This document shows positions 1,569 to 57,386 of a DNA stretch of 64,000 nt, one piece after another. Every line of letters begins with the position of its first letter. Position 1 is the first letter of the stretch. The notes below the pieces were generated by a model. It was not told the DNA's origin, searched no databases, and saw nothing but the letters and a program-made list of their open reading frames with translations. Position numbers and translations under genes: made by a program. The stretch lies in IMG/VR virus record IMGVR_UViG_3300049982_000337, positions 11,097-75,096 of that record. The stretch is one strand, 5' to 3'. The DNA comes from a virus. Its lineage: Duplodnaviria > Caudoviricetes.

Positions 1569-1777
1569 AGTGCGCTCCGATGGAAGAAGGCCTGGCCGGC
1601 GCCGGTGGCGCGAGCGGTGCAGGGGTGGGTGTGGACGACGTCGGCGAGACCGAGGTCTTCGAGACGGACGGCGGCCGAGAGGGGAATTTTGCGGCCGAGG
1701 GGCGCACCGGCGCTGCCGGCGGCGACCAGGATCCGCAGCGCGTCGTGCTCGGCGGGTTGGAGGTGCAGGACACCCAT
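1565..1777 (-). CDS. Hypothetical phage protein
   Basis: Coupled to both neighbours by stop/start overlaps. Confidence 0.55.
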   Translation of the reverse strand: MGVLHLQPAEHDALRILVAAGSAGAPLGRKIPLSAAVRLEDLGLADVVHTHPCTARATGAGQAFFHRSAL

Positions 1778-2001
1778 CAGCGAGCCGCCTGCAGTTGGCC
1801 GACCTTCAGGCCGTCGATGCCGCGCTTACCGGCGCCATCGAGCCAGCTCTGAAGCTCCTCTTCCGAGAGGCCGTACTTCGCGACCGCCAGGCCGAAGCTG
1901 ATGCGCCCGCACTGGACGTCGTTGACCACGTCGAGCTTCCGTCCCGGCGTCCAGCGCAGGTCCACTGTCGTCGCGTGATGAGCGGGCCAGGCGCTCGCCA
2001 T
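1777..2001 (-). CDS. sciP: SciP/DUF1153-like small HTH protein (CtrA-inhibitor homologue)
   Basis: RWTPGRKLDVVNDVQCGRISFGLAVAKYGLSEEELQSWLDGAGKRGIDGLKVGQLQ matches the SciP pattern RW..RRKAEVV.AV.GGL.SL.EAC.RY.L..EEF.SW......G..GLR....Q. Confidence 0.75.
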   Translation of the reverse strand: MASAWPAHHATTVDLRWTPGRKLDVVNDVQCGRISFGLAVAKYGLSEEELQSWLDGAGKRGIDGLKVGQLQAAR

Positions 2002-2002
2002 C

Positions 2003-2245
2003 TCAGTGACCGCCCTCGATCAGCTCTTCGACGGACAGCCAGGCATAGACGTCACGGGGCGCGGGCAGGGGCGCCGAGGCCGGCGGGTAGACCTGAGGCG
2101 CGGGGACTGCGGGCTTGCCCGTCCAGGCCATCAGGCGCGCGCCGATGCTGCCCTTGTGACGGAAGGTCCGGCCATGGGGCTCGACGTCGTCCAGCCGGAA
2201 CGCGGCGAGGTCCATGGTCTGCACGGTGGCGCGACCGAGGCTCAC
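2003..2245 (-). CDS. Hypothetical phage protein
   Basis: In-operon ORF with a 4-bp overlap to the upstream gene. Confidence 0.55.
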   Translation of the reverse strand: MSLGRATVQTMDLAAFRLDDVEPHGRTFRHKGSIGARLMAWTGKPAVPAPQVYPPASAPLPAPRDVYAWLSVEELIEGGH

Positions 2246-2508
2246 GACGCTGGCCCCGTGATCCGCACGGTCGCGCCCTTAAGCAGACCCTTGCAGACCG
2301 CGCCCTTGACGCGGGTGCCGTTGGCGCCAGTTGCCTCGAAGGTCCGCGTCCAGCCCTCCTTGTCGGAACAGCCGAACCACGAGTTGCCGCCGAGTTCGAC
2401 CTGGGTGAAGCCCATGGCGTGGGTCGCCTGCAGGGCGGTGCTCTTTCGCACCTCGCAGCCGCCGAGGGCGACGGCAGCGATGGCAATGATCGCCAGCCGT
2501 TGCATCAC
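2242..2508 (-). CDS. Putative small lipoprotein
   Basis: N-terminal hydrophobic stretch and lipobox ALGGC; C-terminal GAVCKGLLKGATVR. Confidence 0.65.
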   Translation of the reverse strand: MMQRLAIIAIAAVALGGCEVRKSTALQATHAMGFTQVELGGNSWFGCSDKEGWTRTFEATGANGTRVKGAVCKGLLKGATVRITGPAS

Positions 2509-2711
2509 CGCGTACCCTCGGCGACGACCGGCCGGCCACCGCCGCGCGAGTTCTGGCCACCGGTCTTCCCGGCCGCGGCGGCGAGGTCGCGGTCCTTGGC
2601 GAAGCTGCGTTTCTCACCGGGCACGCTAGCCCCGCCCTTACGGGCGATCTCGGTGCGACGCTCGACGGTCATGCCGGCGAATCCGCGCTTGGACTTCGTG
2701 GTGGTGCTCAT
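2505..2711 (-). CDS. KGG-repeat general stress protein (YciG/GsiB/Con-10-like)
   Basis: From ATG 2711: MSTTTKSKRGFAGMTVERRTEIARKGGASVPGEKRSFAKDRDLAAAAGKTGG. RGFA.M...R..EIARKGG is the KGG signature. Confidence 0.85.
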   Translation of the reverse strand: MSTTTKSKRGFAGMTVERRTEIARKGGASVPGEKRSFAKDRDLAAAAGKTGGQNSRGGGRPVVAEGTR

Positions 2712-2938
2712 AGCGGTAGGGTCTCCTGGGCTGTCTCGAAGGAGAGGCGCATGGCCTCGGTGAGCTGATCGACCTTGTGCTTGGCCTGGGCGCGGGCGCG
2801 CTCGGTGGCCTGCGGGTCCTTGGATGCGGCGAGGTGCTGGGCCAGGGCCGAGGTGCATTGCCCCTTGGTCAGCCGCTGGCCGCTCGAATGGGTGACCCAG
2901 CCCGAACCCATTCCGTAGAAGAACGGGCCCTTGCTCAT
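2708..2938 (-). CDS. Hypothetical phage protein
   Basis: MSKGPFFYGMGSGW...; ATGA overlaps on both sides. Confidence 0.55.
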   Translation of the reverse strand: MSKGPFFYGMGSGWVTHSSGQRLTKGQCTSALAQHLAASKDPQATERARAQAKHKVDQLTEAMRLSFETAQETLPL

Positions 2939-3066
2939 CCCGGCAGTCCCGCGAGACCGCCCATCCACATGACGATCTGATAGAGGCCGGCGGCGATCAC
3001 GAGCGCGCTGACGGCGTTGTAGGTGATGCGCTCCAGGCGCGTGGGTGCGGGTTCGCGGCGGCGCAT
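2935..3066 (-). CDS. Small membrane peptide (43 aa)
   Basis: Not in the ORF track: MRRREPAPTRLERITYNAVSALVIAAGLYQIVMWMGGLAGLPG. Coupled at both ends. Confidence 0.55.
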   Translation of the reverse strand: MRRREPAPTRLERITYNAVSALVIAAGLYQIVMWMGGLAGLPG

Positions 3067-3254
3067 CAGGCGCGCCCCTGCAGCGCTAGCGCCGCTTCGA
3101 TTTTGACCCTCTCGGTATTGGCAATCGCGCCGACGCCGACGATCAGCAGAATGGCCATGGCGGCGGCGTAGATCGCAGCCCGCCCCCTGGCCTTTTCGCA
3201 GAATGCGTTGATTGCCCGGCAGAACGCGTAGCCGGCGAAGAACAGCGAGAACAT
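3066..3254 (-). CDS. Small membrane protein
   Basis: Two hydrophobic segments; TGATG coupling. Confidence 0.55.
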   Translation of the reverse strand: MFSLFFAGYAFCRAINAFCEKARGRAAIYAAAMAILLIVGVGAIANTERVKIEAALALQGRA

Positions 3255-3478
3255 CAGGACTGGCCCTCCGCTTCGACCGGCGCGTAGTCGAGCGCCGTCG
3301 GGTGGCTGGGCGAGGCGAAGTTCTGCCCGTCGAACCGCACCATGACGTGGTGGCCCTGGGACGGGTTCTCGCGGGCGATGGTCCCGAAGGAGCGCGGCCC
3401 TTTCATCTCCGGGTGGCGCACACGGGCGCCGACAACCGGGTTCACGCCGTAGGTGCGCTTGACGTAGTCGTAGGCCAT
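3254..3478 (-). CDS. Hypothetical phage protein
   Basis: MAYDYVKRTYGVNPVVGARV...HPTALDY, a small phage-type ORF; TGATG coupling. Confidence 0.65.
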   Translation of the reverse strand: MAYDYVKRTYGVNPVVGARVRHPEMKGPRSFGTIARENPSQGHHVMVRFDGQNFASPSHPTALDYAPVEAEGQS

Positions 3479-3867
3479 CAGGCGTGTTCCTTCTGGCCGA
3501 GCGCCGCTTCGAGCTTGGCGATCACAGGGTCGATGTCGGTGGCGAGGAAGGCCGCGGTCTCGGCGTCTAGGGTTTCGAGGACGGGCTCGAACGTCGCCGG
3601 GTCGAGGACGCGCGCGCTCGAGATCAGCTCCGACCGATCGGCCTTGATGATCGCTAGGGCCAGGGTTGCAGCGTCGACCAGCGCGGTGTTCTCAGCCACC
3701 ACGTGGTGGAGATCGCTCGCAAGAACCGTTGACCCGCCCGGCCCGTAGGACCGAACCAGCGCCTCCATGTACGAAGAGCGAGGCGAAGAGAGAGCCGCTT
3801 GCAGCTTCTTGACGCGCGCAAGCCTGTTCCGCGGAACGTCCAGCTTGCTGTTGAAGGTGGAGGACAT
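3478..3867 (-). CDS. Hypothetical phage protein
   Basis: In-operon ORF; TGATG coupling. Confidence 0.6.
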   Translation of the reverse strand: MSSTFNSKLDVPRNRLARVKKLQAALSSPRSSYMEALVRSYGPGGSTVLASDLHHVVAENTALVDAATLALAIIKADRSELISSARVLDPATFEPVLETLDAETAAFLATDIDPVIAKLEAALGQKEHA

Positions 3868-4628
3868 CAGGCGGCCCTCTGAACGTCGAAGGAGATAAGG
3901 ACGGTGTTGACCCCGGTTCCGGCCTCGCGGAACGATCCTTCAGGCAGGTGCTCGCAGGTGCCTCGATTGCCGTCGACGAGGTCGCGGACCGCCCGATAGT
4001 GCGCAGTCTCGCGGAAGGTCACGGCAGCGCTCATAATGGCGACCAACCGCCCGCCCGGCCTCAGCATCTTCACCGCGTGCAGGACGTGAAGGGCGTCCTG
4101 CTGCTTCGCGAATGGCGGGTTCATGATGACGCGGTCGAAGCGGTCGGTGGGCCCCATCGTCATGAAGTCTTGTTCGTGGACACGACACTCGAGGGCGAAC
4201 TCCGCCCTAAGCTTCTCCGCGGCTGTGCTGTCGAGCTCGCACGCCTCGACCAGTGCGCCCGTGGCCAGCGCAGGGCGGATTAGCGCTCCACCGCCAGCGC
4301 TGGGCTCCAGGACAAGATCGTCCGCACAGATCTCCGCCGTTGCCACGACGCGCGCAGCCAGCTCGGCGGGGGTGAAGAAGGCTTGAAAGTCCTGCTTCCG
4401 GTTCGTGATCTCGCCGGTCAGCAGGATGGGATCGATGGCGTCGGCTGCATTGATCGCAAAGACGTGGGCACCAGCCTTCCGGTCCCACTTGCCGCCGGCC
4501 AGCTCCAGCGCCTTGTTGGTGGCGACGTAGAGCTTCCGGTCGAGGGACGCTGGCAGGTGTAGAGCCGTCCCGTCTGTGATGGAGAGATCGAGGACCTCAA
4601 GGACCTCGTGGGAAAGTCGCAGGGCCAT
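3867..4628 (-). CDS. DNA adenine (N6) methyltransferase
   Basis: True start is probably ATG 4628 (MALRLSHEV). FFTP, VLEPSAGGG (motif I) and VIMNPPF (motif IV), in gamma order. Confidence 0.9.
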   Translation of the reverse strand: MALRLSHEVLEVLDLSITDGTALHLPASLDRKLYVATNKALELAGGKWDRKAGAHVFAINAADAIDPILLTGEITNRKQDFQAFFTPAELAARVVATAEICADDLVLEPSAGGGALIRPALATGALVEACELDSTAAEKLRAEFALECRVHEQDFMTMGPTDRFDRVIMNPPFAKQQDALHVLHAVKMLRPGGRLVAIMSAAVTFRETAHYRAVRDLVDGNRGTCEHLPEGSFREAGTGVNTVLISFDVQRAA

Positions 4629-4990
4629 CAGCGCGCACCCGGCAGGCTGTAGGACGCGAGGTCCGCGGCCAGCAGGCTGAAGTCGACGCGGTGCTCCAGC
4701 AGCGTGGCCTGGACGTCGAGATTGAAGGCGCGGGTTTCGAGGTCGAGGCAGCAGGCGAGGGCCTGGGCCTGCAGGTCGTCGAAGTGGGCGGCTCGCTCTG
4801 TTTCGCCGCGGCGCCGGGCGCCAGCGGCCTTGCCCGCATACTCGGCCTCGGCCTCCATCACCTTCTCGGCCCGATGGTTCAGATCGGCGGCTTCGAGGCG
4901 GTAGAGCGCGGCGATCTCGGCGCGGTTGCTGACAGCAGCCGGCGAGGTGCGGGCGCGGAAGCGGGCGAGTTCTATGACGGCCCCCATCAC
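4628..4990 (-). CDS. Hypothetical helical protein
   Basis: Coupled ORF in the leftward operon. Confidence 0.55.
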   Translation of the reverse strand: MMGAVIELARFRARTSPAAVSNRAEIAALYRLEAADLNHRAEKVMEAEAEYAGKAAGARRRGETERAAHFDDLQAQALACCLDLETRAFNLDVQATLLEHRVDFSLLAADLASYSLPGAR

Positions 4991-5307
4991 GCCGCCGCCC
5001 GAACTTGCCGAGCGCCGGTGTACGCGCCGGAGAGAGAGGGGCGAGCCGCGCGTTCATTGCAGACCAGATCACCGACCGTGACGGTGAGGGCGTCCAGGGG
5101 CATCCGGCGTTGCCGGTTCATCCAGGCGCCCCAAAGCTTCGACACTTCAGCGTCCGACAGATCGGAGAGCGTGGCCGGAGCCGCTTCCACTGCCAGATCG
5201 GCGAGGTGGGCGTTCAGCAGGTCCGAGTTGAAGACCGAGACCTTACCGGCGATCAGGCGTTCGCCTGGGCGGCAGATCGAAGCGGTTGGGGTGGTGTCGC
5301 TGGGCAC
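4987..5307 (-). CDS. First gene of the leftward (pL) operon, hypothetical
   Basis: GTG start at 5307 preceded by a GGAG RBS, just downstream of the left operators. Confidence 0.55.
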   Translation of the reverse strand: MPSDTTPTASICRPGERLIAGKVSVFNSDLLNAHLADLAVEAAPATLSDLSDAEVSKLWGAWMNRQRRMPLDALTVTVGDLVCNERAARPSLSGAYTGARQVRAAA

Positions 5308-5336
5308 GTTGTCTCTCCGGTGTTGGAGAGAGAATA

Positions 5337-5381
5337 TACGGAGTTTCGTAGATCGCAATTGGGAAAATACGAAACATCGTA
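5337..5381. promoter_or_regulatory. Left operator OL: two 14-bp TACG-N6-CGTA sites (5337-5350, 5368-5381)
   Basis: TACGGAGTTTCGTA and TACGAAACATCGTA; the same sequences recur between cI and cro. Confidence 0.85.
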
Positions 5382-5507
5382 GATTTCAAAGTGCTCGGCG
5401 CAAAGCGTAGCTGCGACAGGAGCGGACGCAGGCCATACACGTCAGCGTTGACTTGGCGCACGCGGACGGGAATCAGTCGTTAACACTTGAGGGAGGGGAT
5501 GCCCGAT

Positions 5508-5765
5508 ATGACGCGTCGCACCGTCTACTGCGTTCAGACCTACAGCCACCGGGCCTGCGTCCTCGTGGCAAGCCAGATAGAGCGGTTCCGCAGTGAGACC
5601 GAGGCGACCAGGCAGGCAAATTATCTAAGGCCACGAGTGTCTGGCGGCGTCATCTTCAGTCAGGAGGTCGATCCCGAGTTCGACGTCCTCGGCGAGCCGT
5701 GCCTGCTTGCTGCATATGGGGAGTTGCCCGAAGGTGCCCGACTAGGCGTGGGGACGGCGGGGTAA
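5508..5765 (+). CDS. Hypothetical protein in the immunity region, convergent with cI
   Basis: GGAGG upstream; MTRRTVYCVQTY...GEPCLLAAYGELP. Confidence 0.6.
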   Translation: MTRRTVYCVQTYSHRACVLVASQIERFRSETEATRQANYLRPRVSGGVIFSQEVDPEFDVLGEPCLLAAYGELPEGARLGVGTAG

Positions 5766-5812
5766 GCAGGCCGGTACAATCAGAGCGCACAAATGGCGAA
5801 CGAGGAAGCCGG

Positions 5813-6337
5813 CTAGCCGTCAGTGCCAGTGAAGGTCCTCAGAACCTTGATGGCTTGCTGCTGGTTTTCGGCAGGCACGGTGCTGGCGAGCGCCACGATG
5901 TCCGATTTGGCGAGTGCCGGCGACTTGAAGAGGTTGCCCTCGTTGGTCCCAAAGAGTGGCGCTAAACGCCGCATCCATTTTCCAGTGAGATCGATTTCGC
6001 CGGCCTCGAGTTGCAAAACCACCTGGACAGAAGTCTTCAAAGCGGCGGCTACGTCCTCGACAGTAAGCCCGGCTTCCGCTCGCCATTCGCCGATATGGTT
6101 GGGCTCAAGCTCGGCATCGACGACGGGTGCCGCACCGAAGATGGCTTCGACGGACACCCCATAGGCGCTGGCAATGCGCGCCTCCAGGTCACCCTTCATG
6201 CTCGCTGTTGGCTTCGCGGCGTAGGAGTTGATCGTCGACGGTGTGACGCCAACCCGCGTCGCGATCCGATTTGGGTTCAGGCCGTTGGCGGCCATCCAGG
6301 CCAAAAAGTTCGCGTGGCGACGGGCGGCAAGATCCAT
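5813..6337 (-). CDS. cI: CI-like prophage repressor with two XRE-type HTH domains
   Basis: Start at ATG 6337 (MDLAARR). HTH1 LNPNRIATRVGVTPSTINSY; HTH2 WRAEAGLTVEDVAAALKTSVQVVLQLEAGE. Divergent from cro. No S24 peptidase domain seen. Confidence 0.85.
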   Translation of the reverse strand: MDLAARRHANFLAWMAANGLNPNRIATRVGVTPSTINSYAAKPTASMKGDLEARIASAYGVSVEAIFGAAPVVDAELEPNHIGEWRAEAGLTVEDVAAALKTSVQVVLQLEAGEIDLTGKWMRRLAPLFGTNEGNLFKSPALAKSDIVALASTVPAENQQQAIKVLRTFTGTDG

Positions 6338-6357
6338 CGCTATTATCTGCCCCAAAA

Positions 6358-6419
6358 TACGAAACTCCGTAATGACGATGTTTCGTAGTTTGAGCTTGCG
6401 GGTTCTACGAAACATCGTA
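6358..6419. promoter_or_regulatory. Right operator OR: three 14-bp sites (6358-6371, 6374-6387, 6406-6419)
   Basis: TACGAAACTCCGTA, GACGATGTTTCGTA (reverse complement TACGAAACATCGTC) and TACGAAACATCGTA, between the divergent cI and cro starts. Confidence 0.85.
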
Positions 6420-6430
6420 GATTGCGGCTC

Positions 6431-6652
6431 ATGTCAGACGTCGCCCGCGCCATTCAGAACATCGAAGCCGTTGCCGAAGAGCTAGGGCTCGCGGAATTCG
6501 CCCGCGAGGCGGACGTCCCGTACACGACCGCAGCCGATTGGAAGTCGCGCGGTTGGCGTCCGAAGTGGGTGGTGACGCTGGAGAAATTCGCAGCGGCTGC
6601 CGATCGCCGACGCGCGCCTGAAGCATCACCAACCCAGGATGCCGCAGCGTGA
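6431..6652 (+). CDS. cro: Cro-like HTH protein
   Basis: LGLAEFAREADVPYTTAADWKSRGW HTH; first gene of the rightward operon. Confidence 0.8.
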   Translation: MSDVARAIQNIEAVAEELGLAEFAREADVPYTTAADWKSRGWRPKWVVTLEKFAAAADRRRAPEASPTQDAAA

Positions 6653-6837
6653 GCGAGCTCCAGGCAATCGCGCTGTGCATCGCGTTCGGGTCGCTCGGTC
6701 ACGCCATCGGATCGATAATCCTGATCCGCGAGATCAGAGCTTTGGCGGAGGCCCTGTCTCTCACGGTCACCATCAGCACCGCTGACTTGAAAGGCGCCTT
6801 CGACCAGACGTGTACCGACGCGAAGAGCCGGCCATGA
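6649..6837 (+). CDS. Small hydrophobic hypothetical protein
   Basis: GTGA-coupled to cro; overlaps an opposite-strand ORF. Confidence 0.45.
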   Translation: MSELQAIALCIAFGSLGHAIGSIILIREIRALAEALSLTVTISTADLKGAFDQTCTDAKSRP

Positions 6838-7178
6838 TTGTCCTTGCCCATTCGGCACGTCACCGCCCGCATGGAGAGCCAATCTCCGTCGATGGACTTC
6901 GTCCCATTCGGGAGGGTCTTCGTCGCGCCGCCGCCGGGCAGCAAGAACAGTTTCTTTGGCCAAAGGCCTGTGACGATCAGCTGACCCTCGAGGATCTGGC
7001 CTTGCGCGTCGTAGATGACCTCTATGCCGCACATCTTCTCGTTGAGGCGGGAGCCGAGCAGCGAGAGCTGTCGCGAGTGCCGTCGATAGGCGCCAAGCGC
7101 CAAGCGACCGACCTGGATCGCGATGGTCACCACGGCCGCAATTCCGGCTACGCCCGTCCAGTCGAGGTTCATGCTCAA
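6699..7178 (-). CDS. Hypothetical membrane-anchored protein (antisense moron)
   Basis: N-terminal TM (VAGIAAVVTIAIQV) followed by a globular beta-rich domain. Confidence 0.5.
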   Translation of the reverse strand: MSMNLDWTGVAGIAAVVTIAIQVGRLALGAYRRHSRQLSLLGSRLNEKMCGIEVIYDAQGQILEGQLIVTGLWPKKLFLLPGGGATKTLPNGTKSIDGDWLSMRAVTCRMGKDNHGRLFASVHVWSKAPFKSAVLMVTVRDRASAKALISRIRIIDPMA

Positions 7179-7663
7179 GCATCAGTCATGGCCTCGCTCA
7201 TGTCGAGCACGGCCTGACCGATGCCGCGGGGGGCCTTCACCGACATTCGAGATCACGCGCGGAGGGTCCTGACAGCGCCCCCCGCCCAGCCTGCCGCGCG
7301 TGTGGCCCTCGGCCGTGTATTGGCCGGGGGTCTTCCATTCCTGAGATCGTGGCTTCCGGCGTCGAGCCCGGCTGGCTGCGTTTCACGGCCGGCCAGCCAT
7401 GCCCGGACGTGTGTGAGGCAGGCCCGCAGCGCTCGCCGCGGGCCTGCTGAACTTCTCCAGGGTTCCCGCCCTGAAGCATGGCCGGCGCATTCCCAGCGCC
7501 TTCCAAAAAAACCGCGTGCCCTGGCGTTCTCGCGCCTTGCACGTCGTCTCGTCTCGGTCCTGACCGCTATCCCAGCACGTCAGGGCCGCATCAAACATCT
7601 CCGTATCGAACTCCCTATCCATGACGCGTCCCCCCGGGGCGCCGCCCTTCGTCGTGCTGAAAC

Positions 7664-8107
7664 ATGACGGACCTGATGATGGAAATCTTCGATGGAGTTG
7701 GGGGAAGACGCCCCCTTCCTCGCCTCCCGCGTGAGCTGCGGAAGGCCATCGCCACCTATGTGGCGATCCACGCTCCGAGAGGCCGCCGCAAGTGGGCGGA
7801 GGAGCGCTGGGGCCTCACCTCTGACCAGGCGCGAAGCGTCTGCGACGGCACCGCCTCGCTGAGCACGCTCCAGGTCATCTTCAAACACCCGAATGGCGGC
7901 TGGGCCCTGCTGATCCCGGTCATGGGCGCCGTCATCGGCCAGGAACTCGACGACTTCATCCAAGACGAACGGAAACGCCATGTCGAAGACGCCCTTCGCT
8001 CCGATGCGCTGGGCCGCGATCTGCGCGCTCTGGCTCCTGGTGGCCCTGGTGCTGCCTCCGAGCTGGCTTCTGCGCCAGACCGGTCGTGGAGGGCTCGCAG
8101 TGGCTGA
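7664..8107 (+). CDS. Hypothetical phage regulator (CII-position gene)
   Basis: HTH-like RKWAEERWGLTSDQARSVCDG; position after cro. Confidence 0.55.
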   Translation: MTDLMMEIFDGVGGRRPLPRLPRELRKAIATYVAIHAPRGRRKWAEERWGLTSDQARSVCDGTASLSTLQVIFKHPNGGWALLIPVMGAVIGQELDDFIQDERKRHVEDALRSDALGRDLRALAPGGPGAASELASAPDRSWRARSG

Positions 8108-8251
8108 AATCGCCCGCGACGGCATCCGGCGCCTTCGGGGGCCTCCTGCTCAGAGAACATACCGGGATCGGTGATCGCTCAGCGAGCGACCCGCCCACAC
8201 CTTAAACCCCACCGGCCGCGGGGATGAGCGGTCTGAAGAGAGGAGGGCGGC

Positions 8252-8944
8252 ATGCCCCGCTCCAAGACGGCGAACGACGACCGACCAGCGACGATCCCGA
8301 ATAAGCAAGAGCGTGCTGACCTGCTGAGCCACCACATGGTTCTCCTGCGCGCCCAGGAAGTCCGCCTGGCCAGCAAGAAGGCCGAGCTCGACGAGCTGCG
8401 GGCCGAATACTCCGAGGAGCAGCAAACCCTCACCGACCTCTTCCTTCAGGCCAAGTCCGACACCCGCATCGAGCGCCAGATGCTCGAGCGCGCCCTGAAG
8501 GTCGAGAAGTCCGGCGTCCGTGCGGCGCATAAGGAGGCCGCGGATTGGAACTTCGTCTGCGAAGCCCTGGGCTATCCCTACCAGCCGGATATGTTCGGCA
8601 CCGACGCCACGCCCGAACCGGCGAAGGACCTCCTTTTCTGGGAGGCTGAGGGCTACCTCAACGGTCGTCGCGCCGGCGATCCCGCGGCGCCCAAGGGCTG
8701 CACCGGCGAAGCGCTCCAAGCGTTCCTGAAGGGCCGAGACAAGGGCCAAGCAGAGAACGGCCTGGCTCTCGGCCGCGCCAAGAACGTCATCGAGGCGAGG
8801 GCCACGCCCTCCGTCGAGCCGCCCGTCGACCTCAACTCTGAGGAAGGCCAGGAGGCCATCGACGACGCGGCGAAGAAGCTCAAGAAGAGCGACTTCATGA
8901 AGACCGGCGGTGACGACGCCGGCGCCCAGGCGAGCGCCGCCTGA
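8252..8944 (+). CDS. Putative GapR/DUF2312-like protein with an acidic C-terminal extension
   Basis: Strong GAGGAGG RBS. EEQQTLTDLFLQAKSDTRIERQMLERALKVEK...EAADWNFVCEALG resembles the GapR pattern EI...IKEVYAEAKG.GFD.K.L..VV..RK.......E.A..DLY..A.G. Confidence 0.5.
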   Translation: MPRSKTANDDRPATIPNKQERADLLSHHMVLLRAQEVRLASKKAELDELRAEYSEEQQTLTDLFLQAKSDTRIERQMLERALKVEKSGVRAAHKEAADWNFVCEALGYPYQPDMFGTDATPEPAKDLLFWEAEGYLNGRRAGDPAAPKGCTGEALQAFLKGRDKGQAENGLALGRAKNVIEARATPSVEPPVDLNSEEGQEAIDDAAKKLKKSDFMKTGGDDAGAQASAA

Positions 8945-9363
8945 TGCGCGCTCCGGCCATGCGCGGTTTCAAGGCCGCCCCGATTAAGGAGGTCAGCCTC
9001 CACATGACGGTCGCGGCGCTGATCCGGCGCGCATGGCCGGAGCATCTGCCCTGGTGGCACACGCCGAACGGTGAGCAGCGGGACAAGCGCGTCGCCGGCA
9101 AGCTGAAGGGCATGGGCGTCCTGGCGGGCGTGCCCGACCTCATCTTCATCATGCCCAACGGGCAGGCGTCGTTCATTGAGCTGAAGCGGAAAGGAGAGGG
9201 CCTCTCAGCAGACCAGCTGGTGGTTCACGACAAGCTGCGCGCGCTGGGCTGCGCCTACGAGACCTGCCGGACGCCCGAGGAGGTCGAGGACGTCTTGGAG
9301 CGCTGGCTTGGAGCCTTTGGCCTGACCCTGCGCTGCCGCATCATACGCCCGAGGGCGGCATGA
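8944..9363 (+). CDS. VRR-NUC domain nuclease
   Basis: WWHTPNG...GVLAGVPDL...FIELKRKGEGLSADQ (PD-(D/E)XK). Confidence 0.9.
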   Translation: MRAPAMRGFKAAPIKEVSLHMTVAALIRRAWPEHLPWWHTPNGEQRDKRVAGKLKGMGVLAGVPDLIFIMPNGQASFIELKRKGEGLSADQLVVHDKLRALGCAYETCRTPEEVEDVLERWLGAFGLTLRCRIIRPRAA

Positions 9364-9947
9364 GCGCCCCGGCCGCCACGAGCAACTCACCAGGCTCCAC
9401 TTCGCCAGCCCGCCTGAACGCCCATCGCGCCATGGCACAATCCGCCGGCTGGAACGATGAACGGATTGAGCATCTCAAGAAAGAGTGGGCAGCAGGTCGG
9501 TCTGCGAACCAGATCGCCGCGGATCTCAAGCTCACGCGCAATGCCGTGATCGGAAAGGTTCACCGCCTTGGCCTCAACAGGCGCAGCGGATCGCCGGAGC
9601 CTCGCCGGATGCACATGGCCGCGCCGCGCCCCAAGGTGGCGAAGGCGCCCCAGCCGAGACCGCAGCTCATGATCGCGAGCAATGGGTGTGTCGTCGAGAA
9701 GGCCGAGCCCAGACCGCCGCGTGTCCAGATCCCGGCTCGTGTCGAGGGACCGGGTTCCGCGACTCTGCTGACCGTCGGCGCCCACATGTGCAAGTGGCCG
9801 ATCGGCGATCCGATGGACAAGGAATTCACCCTCTGCGGCCGCGGCCGCGAGCGCGGGTCCTACTGCGCTTCCCATGCCGCCCTGGCCTATGCACCGGCGT
9901 CGAGCACACCCAAGGAGCTGATGCGCGGCCTGCGGAGGTACGTATGA
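9360..9947 (+). CDS. gcrA: GcrA cell-cycle regulator homologue
   Basis: GWNDERIEHLKKEWAAGRSANQIA...TRNAVIGKVHRLGL N-domain and LLTVGAHMCKWPIGDP...FTLCG...GSYCASHAALAY C-domain. Confidence 0.93.
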   Translation: MSAPAATSNSPGSTSPARLNAHRAMAQSAGWNDERIEHLKKEWAAGRSANQIAADLKLTRNAVIGKVHRLGLNRRSGSPEPRRMHMAAPRPKVAKAPQPRPQLMIASNGCVVEKAEPRPPRVQIPARVEGPGSATLLTVGAHMCKWPIGDPMDKEFTLCGRGRERGSYCASHAALAYAPASSTPKELMRGLRRYV

Positions 9948-11422
9948 GCGGCCGCGCCCAGGGCGGAGGTTGCGTCACCGCCCTCTCCGCCGAGAACATC
10001 GCTGCGGCCCTCGTCATCTCGGCCAAGGTATATGGCGACGCGACGTTAAAGGCGGTCGCCGCCAAGAGCGGGATCCTGAGACGATCCCTGCCACCGGCTT
10101 GCGTTGGCCTGCATCTGGCCACCGGCGCGCCGATCGCGCGGGTGGCCGCGCTGATCGGCCTCAGCCATCGCAACGTCATTACCGCTCGCACCAACGCGGA
10201 CGGCCGTTTCACGACGGCGGTTGAGCAGGTGATGGCCGCGCTCGGCGCAACAGAGACCGAAAAGCCGTCCAGACCGCGACCTTGCCCGCCCGTCGAAACC
10301 GTGGCGCCTGTTACGGCGCCTTCGCCGAAGCCGGTGACGCCGAAGGATCGACCGCAGATCGCGGCGCAGTTCGCCGACCTTCGCCGCGTCCAGGACGACC
10401 TGGTCATCAAGGCAATCTCGGTCGCTTCGACCGCCAGTGCAGATGGCTACGCCTACCTAACCCTTGGCGCTCTCGCGGTAGCCACGGACGTGCCCAAGGG
10501 CAGCATCCTCTTCGTGGTTCGGCGGCTGGTCGAGGCCGGCCGGCTTGAAGTCCGCAAGGTGGACACGGCCAAGGGCGAGGTCAGGCAGCCCAATGGTTAC
10601 CGCGTGGCCGACATGGGCCGTGCGGATCCGATTCAACAGCCTTCATCTCAGGTCGCCGCTTGTGCGCCCCCATCGTCTCCCCGGGCAGCGCCTGAGGAAC
10701 GGGCACCCGCGATCCTCGATGGCAAGGTCTCGTCGGTCGACCGCCTTCTCGCCGCGATGCGCGCCGTGGCGACGCCGGATGGCCGGGCCTTCGTGGTTCC
10801 ATTGGAGATCTGCGCGGTTGCCCAGGTCCTGTGGACGAGCTGGGACACCCTGAAAGGCAAGCTGATAGCTCGAGGCGACCTCAAGCTCATCCTTGCGGGG
10901 AAGGTCGATCAGCCCTGGACGTTCTGGGTCTCGACCGGCGAGCGGGGACGGGCGCTGGCGGCTGCCGAGCCAGCCGCGGCCCCTAAAGCTGCACCTCCGC
11001 CGCCGGCCCCGGCCGCGCCGGCGCCGGCCCGCACGGTGGCGACGCGACCGGTCCCGGCTGTTCGGCCCCCGGGCCCGAAGGCGGAGCCCTGGCTTGAGCA
11101 GCGATCGGTTGTGCCGGCCCGCGCACGTCAACACGAGCCGGAGACCCCGACGCTGCCGGTCCCGCCGCGTGCTGACGCCGCGCTTGGGCTGGACGAGTGG
11201 GACGATGGCAAGCCCGGGCCCAAGGCGCTGCGCCACCTGAAGGCTCACGCCTGCCGGTGGCCGATCGGAACGCCGAAGCCGGGCTATGCCGATGAGCAGC
11301 TCTTCTGCGCCGCTCGCGCGCCGCTCGACGAACCGTACTGCGCCCAGCACCAGCCGATGTCCCGCCAGCGCGGGACGTCGCTCACCAAGCCGAAGGCGGC
11401 GCCAACCCGGACCATGCAGTGA
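9944..11422 (+). CDS. Multi-HTH protein with a C-terminal GcrA-type Cys domain
   Basis: Start at ATG 9944 (ATGA overlap). Several winged-HTH-like segments; C-terminus LKAHACRWPIGTP...LFCAA...PYCAQH. Confidence 0.7.
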   Translation: MSGRAQGGGCVTALSAENIAAALVISAKVYGDATLKAVAAKSGILRRSLPPACVGLHLATGAPIARVAALIGLSHRNVITARTNADGRFTTAVEQVMAALGATETEKPSRPRPCPPVETVAPVTAPSPKPVTPKDRPQIAAQFADLRRVQDDLVIKAISVASTASADGYAYLTLGALAVATDVPKGSILFVVRRLVEAGRLEVRKVDTAKGEVRQPNGYRVADMGRADPIQQPSSQVAACAPPSSPRAAPEERAPAILDGKVSSVDRLLAAMRAVATPDGRAFVVPLEICAVAQVLWTSWDTLKGKLIARGDLKLILAGKVDQPWTFWVSTGERGRALAAAEPAAAPKAAPPPPAPAAPAPARTVATRPVPAVRPPGPKAEPWLEQRSVVPARARQHEPETPTLPVPPRADAALGLDEWDDGKPGPKALRHLKAHACRWPIGTPKPGYADEQLFCAARAPLDEPYCAQHQPMSRQRGTSLTKPKAAPTRTMQ

Positions 11423-15221: not shown

Positions 15222-15916
15222 TCATGATCGCGTACGCCAGCAGGACCGGAACCAAGCGCAACCTCGCCCTCATGAAGGCCGCCAACCTGATGGCCGGGTC
15301 GGCGGTCTGGCGGCTGATGGTCTCGGCGCGGGGGGTGCTTCGTTCCGAGGGCTTCCGCTACGCCCTCGACAACGGTGCCTGGACCGCCTTCCAGGAATGG
15401 CTCGCCGGCAAGCGTTTGGTGAACCTGCTGGACCTAGTCGCCTTCCTCAAGGCGGTCCGCCTGCTGGGCCGGGATGCCGACTTCATCGCCCTGCCTGACA
15501 TCGTCATGGGCGGCGAGGCCTCCCTGGACCTGTCGTTGGCTTGGCTGCGGTGGCTTCGCCGCTGGCGATCACTGCGCGGCGTTCGGTTCATGCTCGTGGT
15601 GCAGAACGGGATGGACGAAGGTCCGATGCTGGCGCGCATCAAGCGGGTGGTCGGCCCCAAGGTGGGCGTCTTCGTCGGCGGCGACACTTCCTGGAAGATC
15701 GCGACCATGAAGTTCTGGGCCGAGTTCGCCCATGAGCGCGCCACGATCTGCCATGTCGGCCGGGTCAACACCCCGCGGCGCATCCGCATCTGCGCCGACG
15801 CCGATGTGGACAGCTTCGACGGATCGGGCCTGAGCCGGTTCGCTGTCAACATCCCAGCCATCGAAGCCGCCCGTCAGCAGCCCGACATGTTCGGTCACCG
15901 GAGATTGGCGGCATGA
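15218..15916 (+). CDS. TGT-fold (DpdA/queuine tRNA-ribosyltransferase-like) base-exchange enzyme
   Basis: Motifs in TGT order: YALDNGAW, LPDI, VVQNG, FVGG, HVGRVN, VDSFDGS. Confidence 0.7.
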   Translation: MIMIAYASRTGTKRNLALMKAANLMAGSAVWRLMVSARGVLRSEGFRYALDNGAWTAFQEWLAGKRLVNLLDLVAFLKAVRLLGRDADFIALPDIVMGGEASLDLSLAWLRWLRRWRSLRGVRFMLVVQNGMDEGPMLARIKRVVGPKVGVFVGGDTSWKIATMKFWAEFAHERATICHVGRVNTPRRIRICADADVDSFDGSGLSRFAVNIPAIEAARQQPDMFGHRRLAA

Positions 15917-23027: not shown

Positions 23028-23054
23028 GCCCCGCCCGAAAGCGCGGGGCTTTTT
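23028..23054 (+). terminator. Intrinsic terminator upstream of the late genes
   Basis: GCCCCGC-loop-GCGGGGC followed by TTTTT. Confidence 0.75.
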
Positions 23055-23431
23055 CGTGCCCGGCCGCCCTCGTCGACCGCGCCACAACTTCCGAGGCCTG
23101 CCGATGGCCCGCGCAAGTATCCGCATCCGGGTCGAGATCGAGGCGGTTCAGGACGCGACAGACGATCTGGCGCGGGCGCATCAGAAGCTGGTCCGCCGGC
23201 ATGGCGCGGAGTTTCGCCTACTGGAGCGCGACATCAAGGGGGCATGGAGCGGCTCATCAGTTCGAAGCCGATCTGCCACGACCTCGGCGAAGGTTATCTA
23301 GTCATGACCTGCCCAGAGGAAGCTTCGGCTCTGCTGCTGAGGGCGCGACGCCTGGGCGTGATCTGATCCGCCCGCATCGGGCCGATCTCTCCAGGCCGGA
23401 AGGCGGAGAGCCCTCGCGATAGAGGTCCACC

Positions 23432-55840: not shown

Positions 55841-56283
55841 TGGGCGCTGCGTTCCTCTCCAAGCTCCGCATCGAGGATACCGAGCGGGAGCGACACGGGA
55901 CTGAGCGCGCCGAGTGGGTCCTTCTGGAGCCGTTTGGATATCGCTCGTCCAAGGGCTGGGAGGTCTGGGTTCCAGCCGGCTATGTCACCGACTTTTCGAG
56001 CATCCCGGCGCGGCTTCAGGACGTCGAGTCCTCGACGGGCCGCGCCCGGCGTGCCGCGGTCATCCACGACTGGCTCTACTCAAGCCGGATCGTACCGCGC
56101 GAGGCGGCCGACAAGACGTTCCTCGACGCCATGGAGTGCTGTGGCGTGCCCTACCTTAAGCGATCGCTCATGTTCCGGGCGGTGCGGACGTTCGGGGGTT
56201 CGGGCTACGGCCGGCCGGAAGAGTACGAGGCGGCCAAGGCGCTGCTCGAACGCTCAGACCTTCCCTTGGCTTGGGACTGGTGA
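55840..56283 (+). CDS. DUF1353-domain protein
   Basis: VPAGYVTDFSSIP, AAVIHDWLY, AD..FLDAM...GV, AVR.FG. Confidence 0.88.
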   Translation: MGAAFLSKLRIEDTERERHGTERAEWVLLEPFGYRSSKGWEVWVPAGYVTDFSSIPARLQDVESSTGRARRAAVIHDWLYSSRIVPREAADKTFLDAMECCGVPYLKRSLMFRAVRTFGGSGYGRPEEYEAAKALLERSDLPLAWDW

Positions 56284-56383
56284 TGTTCGACCTCATCCTG
56301 GTCGGGATGGCGGCCTCGATCCTCCTCCCGCTGGCGGCCTTGGCGCTCTGGTGGCGTCTTAGGCTGACCGACTTGAACTGCTT

Positions 56384-57384: not shown

Positions 57385-57386
57385 CT

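What the first reader, a model, noticed from the sequence alone, without database searches (positions are those of the whole stretch)
1777..11422. Prophage carries a multi-gene set of host cell-cycle regulator mimics (SciP + GapR-like + GcrA + second GcrA-domain protein)
Seen: four early genes resemble core alphaproteobacterial cell-cycle or nucleoid factors, split between the pL operon (SciP-like, 1777-2001) and the pR operon (GapR-like 8252-8944, GcrA 9360-9947, GcrA-C-domain protein 9944-11422), upstream of methylases, DnaB and the initiator. Known: in Caulobacter, CtrA blocks replication initiation, SciP inhibits CtrA-activated transcription, GcrA is a sigma70 cofactor that reads methylated GANTC and drives S-phase genes, and GapR binds overtwisted DNA and stimulates type II topoisomerases. 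Single phage GcrA or GapR homologues have been reported. Inference: on induction this phage may force swarmer or G1 cells into an S-phase-like, replication-permissive state with a coordinated module. I am not aware of this combination being described as a system.
Basis: partly seen in the sequence, partly recalled or inferred. Interest (0 to 1): 0.82.

Follow-up and report, generated by a model that had tools for sequence, protein, structure and literature searches.

The report
Phage set of SciP/GapR/GcrA-like regulators
A temperate phage of a Caulobacter-family bacterium carries diverged copies of three host cell-cycle and chromosome regulators (SciP, GapR, GcrA twice), and the same trio recurs in at least eight distantly related phages, so it looks like a selected early-gene module; what it does is untested.

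Summary
All four genes exist at the stated coordinates.

- **1777-2001(-), SciP family:** DUF1153 47 bits and NCBIfam SciP 51 bits (cut-off 100). It lacks the N-terminal third. It sits in a phage-only clade (99/99) apart from chromosomal SciP.
- **9360-9947, full GcrA:** 139 bits. All DNA- and m6A-contact residues and the CCCH zinc finger are kept.
- **9944-11422:** only the sigma70-binding domain of GcrA.
- **8252-8944, "GapR-like":** no GapR hit on its own. A 150-member family profile matches GapR at hhalign 88.7%, E 2.5e-6. Bridging phage proteins score 44-48 bits on Pfam GapR.

**Co-occurrence:** DUF1153 (leftward) plus GapR or GapR-like plus GcrA (rightward) recurs in eight phage contigs that are 30-55% identical. 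One of them has a canonical GapR.

**Prior reports:** Phage GcrA and phage GapR are published. I found no paper on a phage SciP relative, and none among 50,697 isolate phages.

**Function:** Host cell-cycle takeover is plausible but untested. The genes may equally serve phage transcription and replication.

Another first-reader note (e1-5900181) saw GcrA plus SciP in a prophage of another genome.

The parts
1777..2001 (-). SciP-family (DUF1153) helix-turn-helix protein, 74 aa, phage-type. It lacks the N-terminal YVIGPxGxPLT..DLPP segment of chromosomal SciP.
   Evidence: Pfam PF06627 47.2 bits, covering profile positions 29-86 of 87. NCBIfam CtrAInhibSciP 50.9 bits, cut-off 100. PDB 2oa4 E 8e-8 and 2jrt E 1.7e-4. 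Core residues R16, W17, R21, K22, G32, W53, G61, L65 are invariant with chromosomal SciP. Phage-only clade 99/99.
8252..8944 (+). 230-aa two-domain protein: GapR-like N-domain, RMF-like middle domain and an acidic C-terminal tail. It belongs to a family of about 350 clusters at 50% identity.
   Evidence: Family found. AlphaFold model pLDDT 85.4, pTM 0.70, all helical.
8312..8578 (+). GapR-like domain (residues 21-109).
   Evidence: hhalign of the 150-member family against 34 GapR sequences: 88.7%, E 2.5e-6, 76 columns spanning the whole GapR domain. Real score 41.0 against column-shuffled 10.9 +/- 2.1 (maximum 17.6), reversed 12.2, SciP control 17.8. The tool's own hhalign against 12 GapR sequences: 47%, E 1.9e-4. 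3 of 150 members hit PF10073. 18 of 80 canonical phage GapRs hit the family HMM. The protein alone has no Pfam hit.
8612..8770 (+). RMF (ribosome modulation factor)-like domain (residues 121-173).
   Evidence: Top structural match is 4v8g_AV RMF: Z 6.9, rmsd 1.8 A, 52 of 53 residues aligned. 27 of 150 family members hit Pfam RMF at E<=0.01, best 1e-5.
8944..9363 (+). VRR-NUC nuclease gene, translationally coupled between the GapR-like gene and GcrA.
   Evidence: Pfam VRR_NUC 31.2 bits. phrog_824 108 bits. The same position is occupied in L005, L007 and L009.
9360..9947 (+). Full-length GcrA paralogue, 195 aa: DNA-binding domain about residues 29-74, linker, and sigma70-interacting domain about residues 124-195.
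   Evidence: Pfam 138.7 bits. 7ye1 140.9 bits. NCBIfam 169.4 bits, cut-off 280. About 50% identical to Caulobacteraceae chromosomal GcrA. R33, N34, I37, G38, K39, H41, R42 and C-X14-C-X9-C-X2-H are kept, read from the alignment against the residues listed in PMC5887438.
9944..11422 (+). 492-aa protein: N-terminal and middle part of unknown family (winged-helix-like repeats are a lead only), Pro/Ala-rich linker, and a C-terminal GcrA sigma70-interacting domain.
   Evidence: Pfam GcrA 35 bits at residues 374-478. 5yix_B E 1.1e-5 at residues 410-478. Residues 159-469 are 29% identical, E 2e-27, to a 588-aa GP88-fused protein in L009. No other relatives found. Atlas winged-helix leads score 0.80, which is weak.
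11171..11377 (+). GcrA-type CCCH zinc-finger sigma70-interacting domain of the 492-aa protein, with altered spacing C-X17-C-X10-C-X2-H.
   Evidence: Alignment; spacing read from the translation; reference motif from PMC5887438.
11438..15051 (+). Two DNA methyltransferase genes downstream in the same operon: a 976-aa N6/N4 type and a 228-aa methyltransferase-like gene.
   Evidence: PF01555 57.6 bits. phrog_363 104.7 bits. Best solved relatives are 2zie and M.MboIIA; no CcrM chain at E<=1e-3.
15913..18362 (+). Replication genes: DnaB helicase and DUF1376 primosomal protein.
   Evidence: DnaB_C 334 bits and DUF1376 78.5 bits. PHROG primosomal protein.
5813..6415 (-). XRE-type HTH regulator lying between the two arms.
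   Evidence: HTH_31 41.9 bits and HTH_3 38.4 bits. PHROG transcriptional regulator and repressor families.

Best explanation
**What it is.** This is a conserved early-gene module of a lineage of temperate Caulobacteraceae phages. It is built from phage-adapted, long-diverged paralogues of three alphaproteobacterial global regulators.

**Shown here**
- The homologies of all four genes.
- The domain make-up of each protein.
- The operon layout.
- The recurrence of the set in other phages.

**Inferred, how it most likely works**
1. After induction the rightward operon makes a full GcrA paralogue. Its CCCH zinc-finger domain docks on sigma70 region 2. Its intact DNA-binding domain reads m6A-GANTC-type sites. 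Host RNA polymerase is thereby biased toward GcrA-type promoters, either host S-phase genes or the few GANTC sites left in the phage.
2. The 492-aa protein uses the same sigma70-docking domain behind a different DNA-binding part. It is either a second sigma70 cofactor with another specificity or a competitor of host GcrA.
3. The GapR-like domain of the 230-aa protein binds DNA in the way GapR does. It eases replication and transcription of phage DNA just upstream of the nuclease, methylases, DnaB and primosomal genes. The role of its RMF-like domain is open.
4. The leftward operon makes a truncated SciP-type protein. Most likely it binds CtrA and damps CtrA-activated host promoters.

**Net effect proposed:** a CtrA-low, GcrA-high, replication-friendly cell.
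For: **Homology**
- DUF1153/SciP.
- GcrA, full length, with all DNA-contact and zinc residues: with PMC5887438.
- Second sigma70-interacting-domain protein.
- GapR-like domain. Bridging roughly 220-aa phage proteins next to GcrA score 44-48 bits on Pfam GapR, and one also has an RMF hit.

**Selection for the set**
- DUF1153 on the minus strand, with GapR or GapR-like plus GcrA on the plus strand, occurs in the window and in L005, L007, L009, L171, L172, L199 and L251.
- Proteins across these contigs are only 30-55% identical.
- L251 uses a canonical GapR (109.7 bits) in the same slot and has two tandem GcrA-domain genes.
- 25 of 80 viral GcrA loci have GapR or a GapR-like gene within 10 kb. 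16 of 80 viral GapR loci have GcrA.

**Not recent captures**
- The phage DUF1153 proteins form their own clade at 99/99 support.
- The SciP-like and GcrA proteins score below the NCBIfam equivalog cut-offs.

**SciP-like protein acts on the host rather than the phage**
- CtrA boxes in the phage are at chance level, 2 observed against 0.95 expected.

**Host type**
- Five Caulobacteraceae genomes each have exactly one SciP and one GapR.

**Literature**
- phiCbK GcrA has been speculated to act on the host cell cycle (PMC9437464; PMC7987155).
Against: - No functional data exist for any of the four genes.
- The SciP-like protein lacks the N-terminal third of SciP and is below the equivalog cut-off.
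- The GapR likeness is remote. The IERIERLEEEK signature is lost, and the protein alone gives no Pfam hit.
- Two of six sigma70-interface residues of GcrA differ (G129E, F132L).
- SciP is a G1 factor and GcrA an S-phase factor, so their joint effect on the cell cycle is not obvious (PMC6847485).
- GcrA-domain genes are common in phages: at least 219 IMG/VR loci, including Synechococcus phages that carry only the C-terminal domain. This points to a general phage transcription role.
- Several co-occurrence loci were found through GcrA or GapR queries. The counts are therefore ascertainment-biased and partly reflect shared ancestry.
Confidence: 0.45

Rival explanations
1. The proteins are phage-autonomous regulators. 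They are borrowed folds used only for the phage's own programme. The GcrA paralogue and the 492-aa protein are sigma70 adaptors that switch on phage middle or late promoters. The GapR-like protein organises or relieves torsion on replicating phage DNA. The DUF1153 protein is an ordinary HTH regulator of the leftward recombination operon. Effects on the host cell cycle are incidental.
For: - GcrA-domain genes are widespread in viral contigs: 219 confirmed loci.
- They occur in isolate phages of non-dimorphic hosts such as Synechococcus, Rhizobium and Phaeobacter.
- The sigma70-interacting domain is fused to varied N-terminal parts: winged-helix-like here, GP88 in L009, HTH_23 in L251. This is what modular RNA-polymerase adaptors would look like.
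- A prophage structural operon in Brevundimonas is expressed in a GcrA-dependent way (PMC7987155).
- GANTC is six-fold depleted in the window, 53 against 326 expected. Only 7 YGAKTCG sites remain against 68 expected, so the remaining sites could be regulatory.
- The DUF1153 gene always sits just upstream of a phrog_1376 protein and an exonuclease VIII-like gene.
- T4 DsbA, a late-transcription helper, is reported to be a GapR homologue (PMC7824862).
Against: - The only known activity of the SciP family is on CtrA, and the phage has no excess of CtrA boxes.
- The GcrA DNA-binding domain keeps every residue that reads the host's methylated GANTC motif, so host promoters would be bound as well.
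- No GcrA-type promoter in the phage was demonstrated. The TGATTCG at 22975 lies next to a terminator, not an evident promoter.
Confidence: 0.3
2. Only GcrA is a meaningful regulator homologue. The "SciP-like" and "GapR-like" labels are superficial. One is a generic small HTH related to IS3 OrfA-type HTH_28 domains. The other is a helical protein whose real activity lies in its RMF-like or C-terminal parts. Their linkage with GcrA then reflects a shared phage backbone, not joint function.
For: - P0002 also hits HTH_28 at 22.6 bits and is far below the SciP equivalog cut-off.
- P0001 alone has no GapR hit.
- The nine-sequence profile gave only 4.7% probability.
- Foldseek found nothing, and the GapR structural match is weak, Z 3.4.
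- Most triple-bearing contigs share synteny in methyltransferase, DnaB, DUF1376 and DUF3799 genes. Common descent therefore explains part of the co-occurrence.
Against: - DUF1153 is clearly the best family, at 47 bits and above cut-off in all nine phage proteins. The SciP core residues are invariant.
- The 150-member profile gives E 2.5e-6 with clean negative controls.
- Same-position proteins with genuine Pfam GapR domains exist.
- L251 carries a canonical GapR in the slot.
- Sequence divergence of 30-55% with retained layout argues for selection.
Confidence: 0.2
3. The genes are passenger genes with no coordinated role, picked up from hosts at different times.
For: Temperate phages often carry host-derived morons. 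GapR is very common in viral and proviral contigs, with at least 554 loci.
Against: - The genes are embedded in translationally coupled early operons, not at moron positions.
- They form a phage-specific clade and have phage-specific architectures.
- They are conserved across eight diverged contigs.
- Canonical host-type SciP was found only once in 2.9 million viral contigs.
Confidence: 0.05

Closest known systems
GcrA homologues of phiCbK-like Caulobacter phages (Gill et al. 2012, as cited in PMC9437464 and PMC7987155)
   Same: Both are phage-encoded GcrA-family proteins in phages of Caulobacteraceae, and both have been speculated to act on the host cell cycle. 23 isolate-phage records carry a GcrA relative.
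   Different: - The phiCbK-type proteins are only about 30% identical and cover 67-72% of this one. This one is about 50% identical to chromosomal GcrA.
- This phage is temperate.
- It adds a second protein carrying only the sigma70-binding domain.
- It links GcrA to a GapR-like and a SciP-like gene. No isolate phage matched either of those.
SciP, the CtrA inhibitor of Caulobacter (DUF1153; NCBIfam NF051866)
   Same: It shares the same Pfam family and HTH core. The R-W...R-K, G, W and G..GL positions are invariant. Solved relatives are 2oa4 and 2jrt.
   Different: - It lacks the first roughly 28 profile positions (YVIGPxGxPLT..DLPP).
- It scores 51 bits against 135-142 bits for chromosomal SciP.
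- It falls in a separate phage clade.
- It is encoded in a phage early operon rather than as the single chromosomal copy.
GapR (DUF2312/PF10073), phage GapR of Erythrobacter phage R34L1 (PMC12185513), and T4 DsbA (PMC7824862)
   Same: The N-terminal domain aligns over the whole GapR DNA-binding domain at profile level, keeping the AK and ALG anchor motifs. It is encoded next to replication genes, as phage GapRs often are.
   Different: - It is not detectable by the Pfam model.
- The IERIERLEEEK signature is lost and helix 1 has a 7-residue insertion.
- It is fused to an RMF-like domain and an acidic tail, making it 230 aa against about 90.
- The roughly 350-cluster family has no Pfam family of its own.
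Ribosome modulation factor (PF04957; 4v8g chain AV)
   Same: Residues 121-173 superpose on the whole of RMF at rmsd 1.8 A, Z 6.9. 27 of 150 family members hit the Pfam model weakly.
   Different: Here it is a domain inside a DNA-binding-type protein of a phage, and P0001 itself is below detection by Pfam. Ribosome binding is not implied by the fold.
CtrA-box 'lytic deferment' phages (PMC9437464)
   Same: Both are alphaproteobacterial phages that couple their programme to the host CtrA cell-cycle circuit.
   Different: Those phages read host CtrA through binding sites in their DNA. This phage has no excess of CtrA boxes and instead encodes a relative of the CtrA inhibitor.

Membership tests
SciP / DUF1153 (PF06627; NCBIfam NF051866) | Scores above the Pfam gathering cut-off | tested here: met
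   47.2 bits against a cut-off of 23.5. All eight other phage-type proteins score 40-55 bits.
SciP / DUF1153 (PF06627; NCBIfam NF051866) | Scores above the NCBIfam equivalog cut-off (same function as SciP) | tested here: not met
   50.9 bits against a cut-off of 100. Chromosomal SciPs score 135-142 bits on Pfam.
SciP / DUF1153 (PF06627; NCBIfam NF051866) | Full-length architecture including the N-terminal YVIGPxGxPLT..DLPP segment | tested here: not met
   Only profile positions 29-86 are matched. The segment is absent in all phage-type members.
SciP / DUF1153 (PF06627; NCBIfam NF051866) | Conserved HTH core residues (R35, W36, R40, K41 in Caulobacter numbering; a role of R35 and R40 in CtrA binding is recalled from memory and not verified) | tested here: met
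   R16, W17, R21 and K22 are invariant across phage and chromosomal sequences.
SciP / DUF1153 (PF06627; NCBIfam NF051866) | Groups with chromosomal SciP in a tree | tested here: not met
   Eight phage proteins plus one chromosomal outlier form a clade with 99/99 support, apart from 27 chromosomal SciPs.
SciP / DUF1153 (PF06627; NCBIfam NF051866) | Binds CtrA and blocks CtrA-activated transcription | not testable with these tools
This needs two-hybrid and reporter assays.
GapR (PF10073, GapR_DNA-bd) | Scores above the Pfam gathering cut-off | tested here: not met
   No hit at E<=10 for P0001 and none in the record. 3 of 150 family members hit at E<=0.01.
GapR (PF10073, GapR_DNA-bd) | Profile-level homology across the DNA-binding domain | tested here: met
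   hhalign 88.7%, E 2.5e-6, 76 columns. The tool's own run gave 47%, E 1.9e-4. Bridging proteins have Pfam GapR at 44-48 bits.
GapR (PF10073, GapR_DNA-bd) | Signature motifs IERIERLEEEK and EAKxxGFDxK | tested here: not met
   In the alignment, only A48, K49, K66, A85 and the ALG motif are kept. The helix-1 signature is replaced.
GapR (PF10073, GapR_DNA-bd) | Small single-domain protein of about 80-100 aa | tested here: not met
   230 aa with an added RMF-like domain and tail.
GapR (PF10073, GapR_DNA-bd) | Tetrameric clamp on overtwisted DNA; stimulates gyrase and topo IV | not testable with these tools
   The monomer model matches 6cfx only weakly, Z 3.4 and rmsd 9.7 A. No oligomer prediction was available.
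GcrA (PF07750; NCBIfam NF050816), for 9360-9947 | Pfam cut-off met, with both domains present | tested here: met
   138.7 bits, profile positions 3-150 of 155. Full-length alignment to 7ye1.
GcrA (PF07750; NCBIfam NF050816), for 9360-9947 | NCBIfam equivalog cut-off | tested here: not met
   169.4 bits against a cut-off of 280.
GcrA (PF07750; NCBIfam NF050816), for 9360-9947 | DNA and m6A contact residues R33, N34, I37, G38, K39, H41, R42 (PMC5887438) | tested here: met
   All are identical in the alignment.
GcrA (PF07750; NCBIfam NF050816), for 9360-9947 | CCCH zinc finger C-X14-C-X9-C-X2-H | tested here: met
   Spacing and residues are kept (alignment).
GcrA (PF07750; NCBIfam NF050816), for 9360-9947 | Sigma70-interface residues W120, G129, F130, F132, Y142, Y151 | tested here: inconclusive
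   W120, F130, Y142 and Y151 are kept; G129 becomes E and F132 becomes L. Position 129 also varies in chromosomal GcrAs, for example E in Brevundimonas.
GcrA (PF07750), for 9944-11422 | N-terminal GcrA DNA-binding domain | tested here: not met
   Only profile positions 66-149 match. The N-terminal 370 residues are unrelated to GcrA.
GcrA (PF07750), for 9944-11422 | CCCH sigma70-interacting domain | tested here: inconclusive
   35 bits, above the 26.9 cut-off. 5yix_B E 1.1e-5. CCCH is present, but with C-X17-C-X10-C-X2-H spacing, and Y151 is not kept.
RMF (PF04957), for residues 121-173 of the 8252 protein | Pfam hit or RMF fold | tested here: inconclusive
   P0001 has no Pfam hit. 27 of 150 relatives hit at E<=0.01, all below the 27.9-bit cut-off in the cases seen. 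The best structural match is RMF at Z 6.9 and rmsd 1.8 A over 52 of 53 residues.

The most novel reading that the evidence does not exclude
The SciP-like, GapR-like and GcrA genes form a dedicated viral cell-cycle takeover cassette of alphaproteobacterial temperate phages.
- A phage-encoded, stabilised CtrA anti-activator would be the first SciP relative known on a virus.
- It would work together with one or two sigma70-docking GcrA paralogues and a GapR-derived DNA clamp.
- Together they would lock the host into a CtrA-off, replication-competent state.
- The GapR-RMF fusion would add a further, undescribed link from DNA topology to another host machine.
Probability: 0.25. Interest if true: 0.8.

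Novelty: new variant of a known kind. Interest (0 to 1): 0.62.

Why it matters
The CtrA-SciP-GcrA-CcrM circuit of Caulobacter is the best-studied bacterial cell-cycle network. How phages deal with a host whose replication competence depends on cell type is an open question. Known pieces are a GcrA homologue in phiCbK and CtrA boxes in some phage genomes.

This finding adds three things:
- A phage lineage of SciP relatives. A census found host-type SciP only once in 2.9 million viral contigs, against at least 554 GapR loci and at least 219 GcrA loci.
- A roughly 350-cluster family of GapR-like/RMF-like fusion proteins with no Pfam family of its own.
- Proteins that reuse only the sigma70-docking zinc finger of GcrA.

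The parts recur together in diverged phages. That gives a concrete, testable set of natural probes:
- a minimal SciP core to map CtrA binding;
- alternative sigma70 cofactors;
- a diverged GapR domain.

If the rival reading is right, the same genes show how phages turn host cell-cycle regulators into their own transcription and replication helpers.

Tried and rejected
**Searches that found nothing or little**
- Direct Pfam, NCBIfam, PHROG and PDB sequence searches of the 8252 protein gave nothing for GapR.
- The nine-sequence family profile gave only 4.7% hhalign probability. The link appeared only after the family was expanded to 150 members.
- Foldseek of the model against PDB had no match at E<=0.001.
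- hhalign of the family against a single bridging protein was weak: 10.6%, P 0.003.
- Looking for relatives of the 8252 family in species genomes found nothing. The metagenome scan added only short contigs.
- Four look-ups of distant family members gave contigs too short for context.
- Two word-based searches for relatives of the 492-aa protein found only itself. The 534-aa GP88 protein of L005 is unrelated to it.
- Protein Atlas leads for its N-terminal part (winged helix) scored 0.80, at chance level.

**Tools and papers not available**
- The SciP papers of Tan 2010 and Gora 2010 are not held. The role of R35 and R40 in CtrA binding rests on memory only.

**Ideas tested and dropped**
- CtrA boxes in the phage are not enriched.
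- The sigma70-consensus promoter scan of the switch region found no sites.
- The idea that the 976-aa methylase is a CcrM orthologue was rejected. No CcrM chain appears among its solved relatives.
- The TGATTCG at 22975 was considered as a GcrA-dependent late promoter and dropped, because it abuts a terminator.

Full report
**What the window is.** The window is positions 11097-75096 of a 75-kb IMG/VR provirus record.
- It carries portal (DUF4055), MuF, P22-type coat, GH108 lysis and tail genes.
- A tyrosine integrase sits at the far left of the record, outside the window.
- G+C content is about 67%.
- Its GcrA is closest, at about 50% identity, to chromosomal GcrA of Phenylobacterium, Caulobacter and Brevundimonas. 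The host is therefore most likely a member of the Caulobacteraceae.

- All four ORFs are present at the reported coordinates. They have coding-type GC3 of 0.79-0.86 and Shine-Dalgarno-like sequences.
- 1777-2001(-) lies in a chain of coupled minus-strand genes that runs towards a phrog_1376 protein and an exonuclease VIII-like gene.
- 8252-8944, 8944-9363 (VRR-NUC nuclease), 9360-9947 and 9944-11422 form a plus-strand chain with overlapping stops and starts.
- Downstream are two methyltransferase genes, DnaB and a DUF1376 primosomal protein.
- An XRE-type regulator (5813-6415, minus strand) lies between the two arms.

**SciP-like gene.**
- The 74-aa product hits Pfam DUF1153 at 47.2 bits (cut-off 23.5). 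It hits the NCBIfam equivalog "CtrA inhibitor SciP" at 50.9 bits, well below that model's cut-off of 100.
- It matches the solved DUF1153 proteins 2oa4 (E 8e-8) and 2jrt.
- Only profile positions 29-86 are covered. The N-terminal YVIGPxGxPLT..DLPP segment of chromosomal SciP is missing.
- The core (R-W, R-K, G, W, G..GL) is invariant.
- Five Caulobacteraceae genomes each have one SciP scoring 135-142 bits over the whole profile.
- In a maximum-likelihood tree, eight phage proteins plus one chromosomal outlier form a clade with 99/99 support, apart from 27 chromosomal SciPs.
- All nine phage-type proteins pass the Pfam cut-off, and all lack the N-terminal part.
- Conclusion: this is a real family member, but a phage-specific truncated subfamily rather than an orthologue.

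**GapR-like gene.**
- On its own the 230-aa protein gives no GapR hit in Pfam at E<=10, in the whole record, or in PDB.
- A first family of nine sequences gave hhalign P 0.0085 and probability 4.7% against 34 GapR sequences that I extracted from alphaproteobacterial genomes.
- A full HMMER scan with that profile found 350 clusters at E<=1e-3.
- With 150 of them aligned, the comparison rose to 88.7% probability, E 2.5e-6. It covers 76 columns, with residues 21-109 aligned to the entire GapR domain.
- Controls: the real score is 41.0; column-shuffled GapR gives 10.9 +/- 2.1 (maximum 17.6); reversed gives 12.2; an unrelated SciP alignment gives 17.8.
- The tool's own hhalign with a 12-sequence GapR alignment gave 47%, E 1.9e-4, over the same columns.
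- Independent support:
  - 3 of 150 members hit Pfam GapR_DNA-bd.
  - 18 of 80 canonical phage GapRs hit the family HMM.
  - Three roughly 220-aa phage proteins lying beside GcrA carry a genuine Pfam GapR domain at 44-48 bits, and one of them also has an RMF hit at residues 150-190.
- The AlphaFold model (pLDDT 85.4) is all helical. Foldseek found nothing.
- An exhaustive structural alignment put RMF bound to the ribosome (4v8g_AV) first: Z 6.9, rmsd 1.8 A, 52 of 53 residues, model residues 121-173. Bosea GapR appeared only at Z 3.4.
- 27 of 150 members hit Pfam RMF weakly.
- Conclusion: the protein is a remote GapR-like domain fused to an RMF-like domain and an acidic tail. The GapR helix-1 signature is lost, so I do not file it as a GapR.

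**GcrA genes.**
- The 195-aa protein scores 138.7 bits on Pfam GcrA and 140.9 bits against Caulobacter GcrA. It scores 169 bits on the NCBIfam equivalog, whose cut-off is 280.
- Against the residues defined structurally in PMC5887438:
  - every DNA and m6A contact residue (R33, N34, I37, G38, K39, H41, R42) is kept;
  - the CCCH zinc finger C-X14-C-X9-C-X2-H is kept;
  - four of six essential sigma70-interface residues are kept (G129E, F132L). Position 129 also varies among chromosomal GcrAs.
- The 492-aa protein carries only the sigma70-interacting domain: 35 bits on Pfam and E 1.1e-5 to 5yix_B. Its CCCH spacing is C-X17-C-X10-C-X2-H.
- Its residues 159-469 have one detectable relative, a GP88-fused 588-aa protein next to GcrA in L009 (E 2e-27). 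Otherwise it is an orphan.

**Is it a module?**
- Relatives of the 230-aa protein led to three phage contigs (L005, L007, L009). Each has DUF1153 in the leftward arm, and GapR-like, a roughly 140-150-aa gene and GcrA in the rightward arm. Methylase and DnaB follow in all three, and DUF1376 in L005.
- I scanned 80 of 219 viral GcrA loci with my own HMMs:

| Content within 10 kb of GcrA | Loci |
|---|---|
| DUF1153 + GapR-like + GcrA (L171, L172, L199, and a duplicate of L005) | 4 |
| GapR-like + GcrA | 11 |
| Canonical GapR + GcrA | 10 |
| GcrA alone | 55 |

- Of 80 viral GapR loci (from at least 554), 16 had a GcrA-domain gene. One of them, L251, had DUF1153 (39.9 bits) on the minus strand, with a canonical GapR (109.7 bits) and two tandem GcrA-domain genes on the plus strand.
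- A complete 60-kb phage (L165) has DUF1153 plus a small ORF resembling the GcrA C-terminal domain, at 23.5 bits, below the cut-off.
- Across these contigs the three proteins are only 30-55% identical to those of the window.
- Host-type SciP was found once in 2.9 million viral contigs.
- No isolate phage among 50,697 records matched the SciP-like or GapR-like proteins. 23 records carry GcrA relatives, mostly phiCbK-like.
- Caveats: several loci were reached through GcrA or GapR queries, and many share backbone synteny. The counts therefore mix selection with common descent.

**Mechanism.**
- Established facts:
  - SciP inhibits late-S CtrA-activated promoters and is a short-lived G1 protein (PMC6847485).
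  - GcrA rides on sigma70 region 2 and reads methylated YGAKTCG (PMC5887438).
  - GapR encircles overtwisted DNA and stimulates type II topoisomerases (as summarised in PMC12185513).
- I infer that the phage proteins keep the docking parts of these activities. This is best supported for GcrA, plausible for the second sigma70-interacting domain, and weakest for the SciP-like and GapR-like proteins.
- CtrA boxes are at chance level in the phage, 2 against 0.95 expected. A SciP-like protein would therefore act on host promoters rather than phage ones.
- GANTC is six-fold depleted, 53 against 326 +/- 16 expected. Only seven YGAKTCG sites remain against 68 expected. This fits life in a CcrM host and leaves room for a few regulatory sites.
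- I could not show a GcrA-type phage promoter.
- The phage methylase is not detectably CcrM-like.
- The rival view is that these proteins are phage transcription and replication helpers and not host-directed mimics. It is supported by three things: the wide spread of GcrA-domain genes in phages, the modular fusions of the sigma70-docking domain, and a GcrA-dependent prophage operon in Brevundimonas (PMC7987155).
- I rate host-directed reprogramming together with phage use at 0.45, purely phage-autonomous use at 0.30, and "only GcrA is meaningful" at 0.20.

**Novelty.**
- Already published:
  - phage GcrA in phiCbK (PMC9437464; PMC7987155);
  - phage GapR in Erythrobacter phage R34L1 (PMC12185513);
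  - T4 DsbA as a GapR homologue (PMC7824862).
- My searches found no paper on a phage SciP relative, and I met no description of the GapR-like/RMF-like family or of the recurrent trio. These searches cover open-access text only.
- I class the finding as a new variant of a known kind: phage-borne copies of host global regulators.
- A separate first-reader note (e1-5900181) reports GcrA plus SciP in a prophage of another genome, which agrees with the recurrence shown here.

**Data provenance.** Its locus L106 was left out of the GapR set.

Noticed in passing
window 1-64000: GANTC, the CcrM site, is six-fold depleted: 53 sites against 326 +/- 16 expected. The GcrA motif YGAKTCG is ten-fold depleted: 7 against 68 expected. 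21 of the 53 GANTC sites lie in the last 8 kb (56000-64000), which has lower G+C and holds a serine-recombinase element.
   Followed up: partly
window 8612-8770 (residues 121-173 of the 8252 protein): An RMF (ribosome modulation factor)-like domain sits inside a phage DNA-binding-type protein. From my own knowledge, NCBI groups RMF with the plasmid/ICE protein CrpP, which is linked to ciprofloxacin tolerance. Since GapR acts with gyrase and topo IV, a topoisomerase link for this domain is worth testing. This is pure speculation.
   Followed up: partly
L251:10918-12617 (IMGVR_UViG_3300047469_000377): Two consecutive GcrA-domain ORFs, each with an extra N-terminal HTH_23 domain, follow a canonical GapR. 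A DUF1153 gene lies on the opposite strand at 5133-5603.
   Followed up: partly
L190:3115-3765, L211:7898-8587, L234:2470-3147: Roughly 220-aa phage proteins beside GcrA have a bona fide Pfam GapR domain (44-48 bits) and a long C-terminal extension. L234 has a weak RMF hit. They look like intermediates between GapR and the GapR-like/RMF-like family.
   Followed up: partly
Viral-contig collection: There is a large asymmetry in how often phages carry the three regulators: GapR at least 554 loci, GcrA at least 219 loci, host-type SciP 1 locus (at a contig end, possibly host flank).
   Followed up: no
window 6454-7182 (-): The 242-aa ORF has GC3 of only 0.53. The overlapping frame 6699-7178(-) has GC3 0.81, so the gene next to the switch region is probably the shorter 159-aa ORF.
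   Followed up: no
window 23028-23056: A clear intrinsic terminator (GC-rich hairpin then TTTTT) lies just after the ORF ending at 22977, and about 45 bp after a TGATTCG site.
   Followed up: no
L152 (G054:C53:18729-18899): A chromosomal DUF1153 gene with the phage-type RWLPGRK core groups with the phage clade. It may lie in an unrecognised prophage.
   Followed up: no
L249:1-1119 (-), left of the window: The record starts with a tyrosine integrase, followed by DUF1643 and AAA_24 genes. The leftward early region is therefore about 18 kb long.
   Followed up: no
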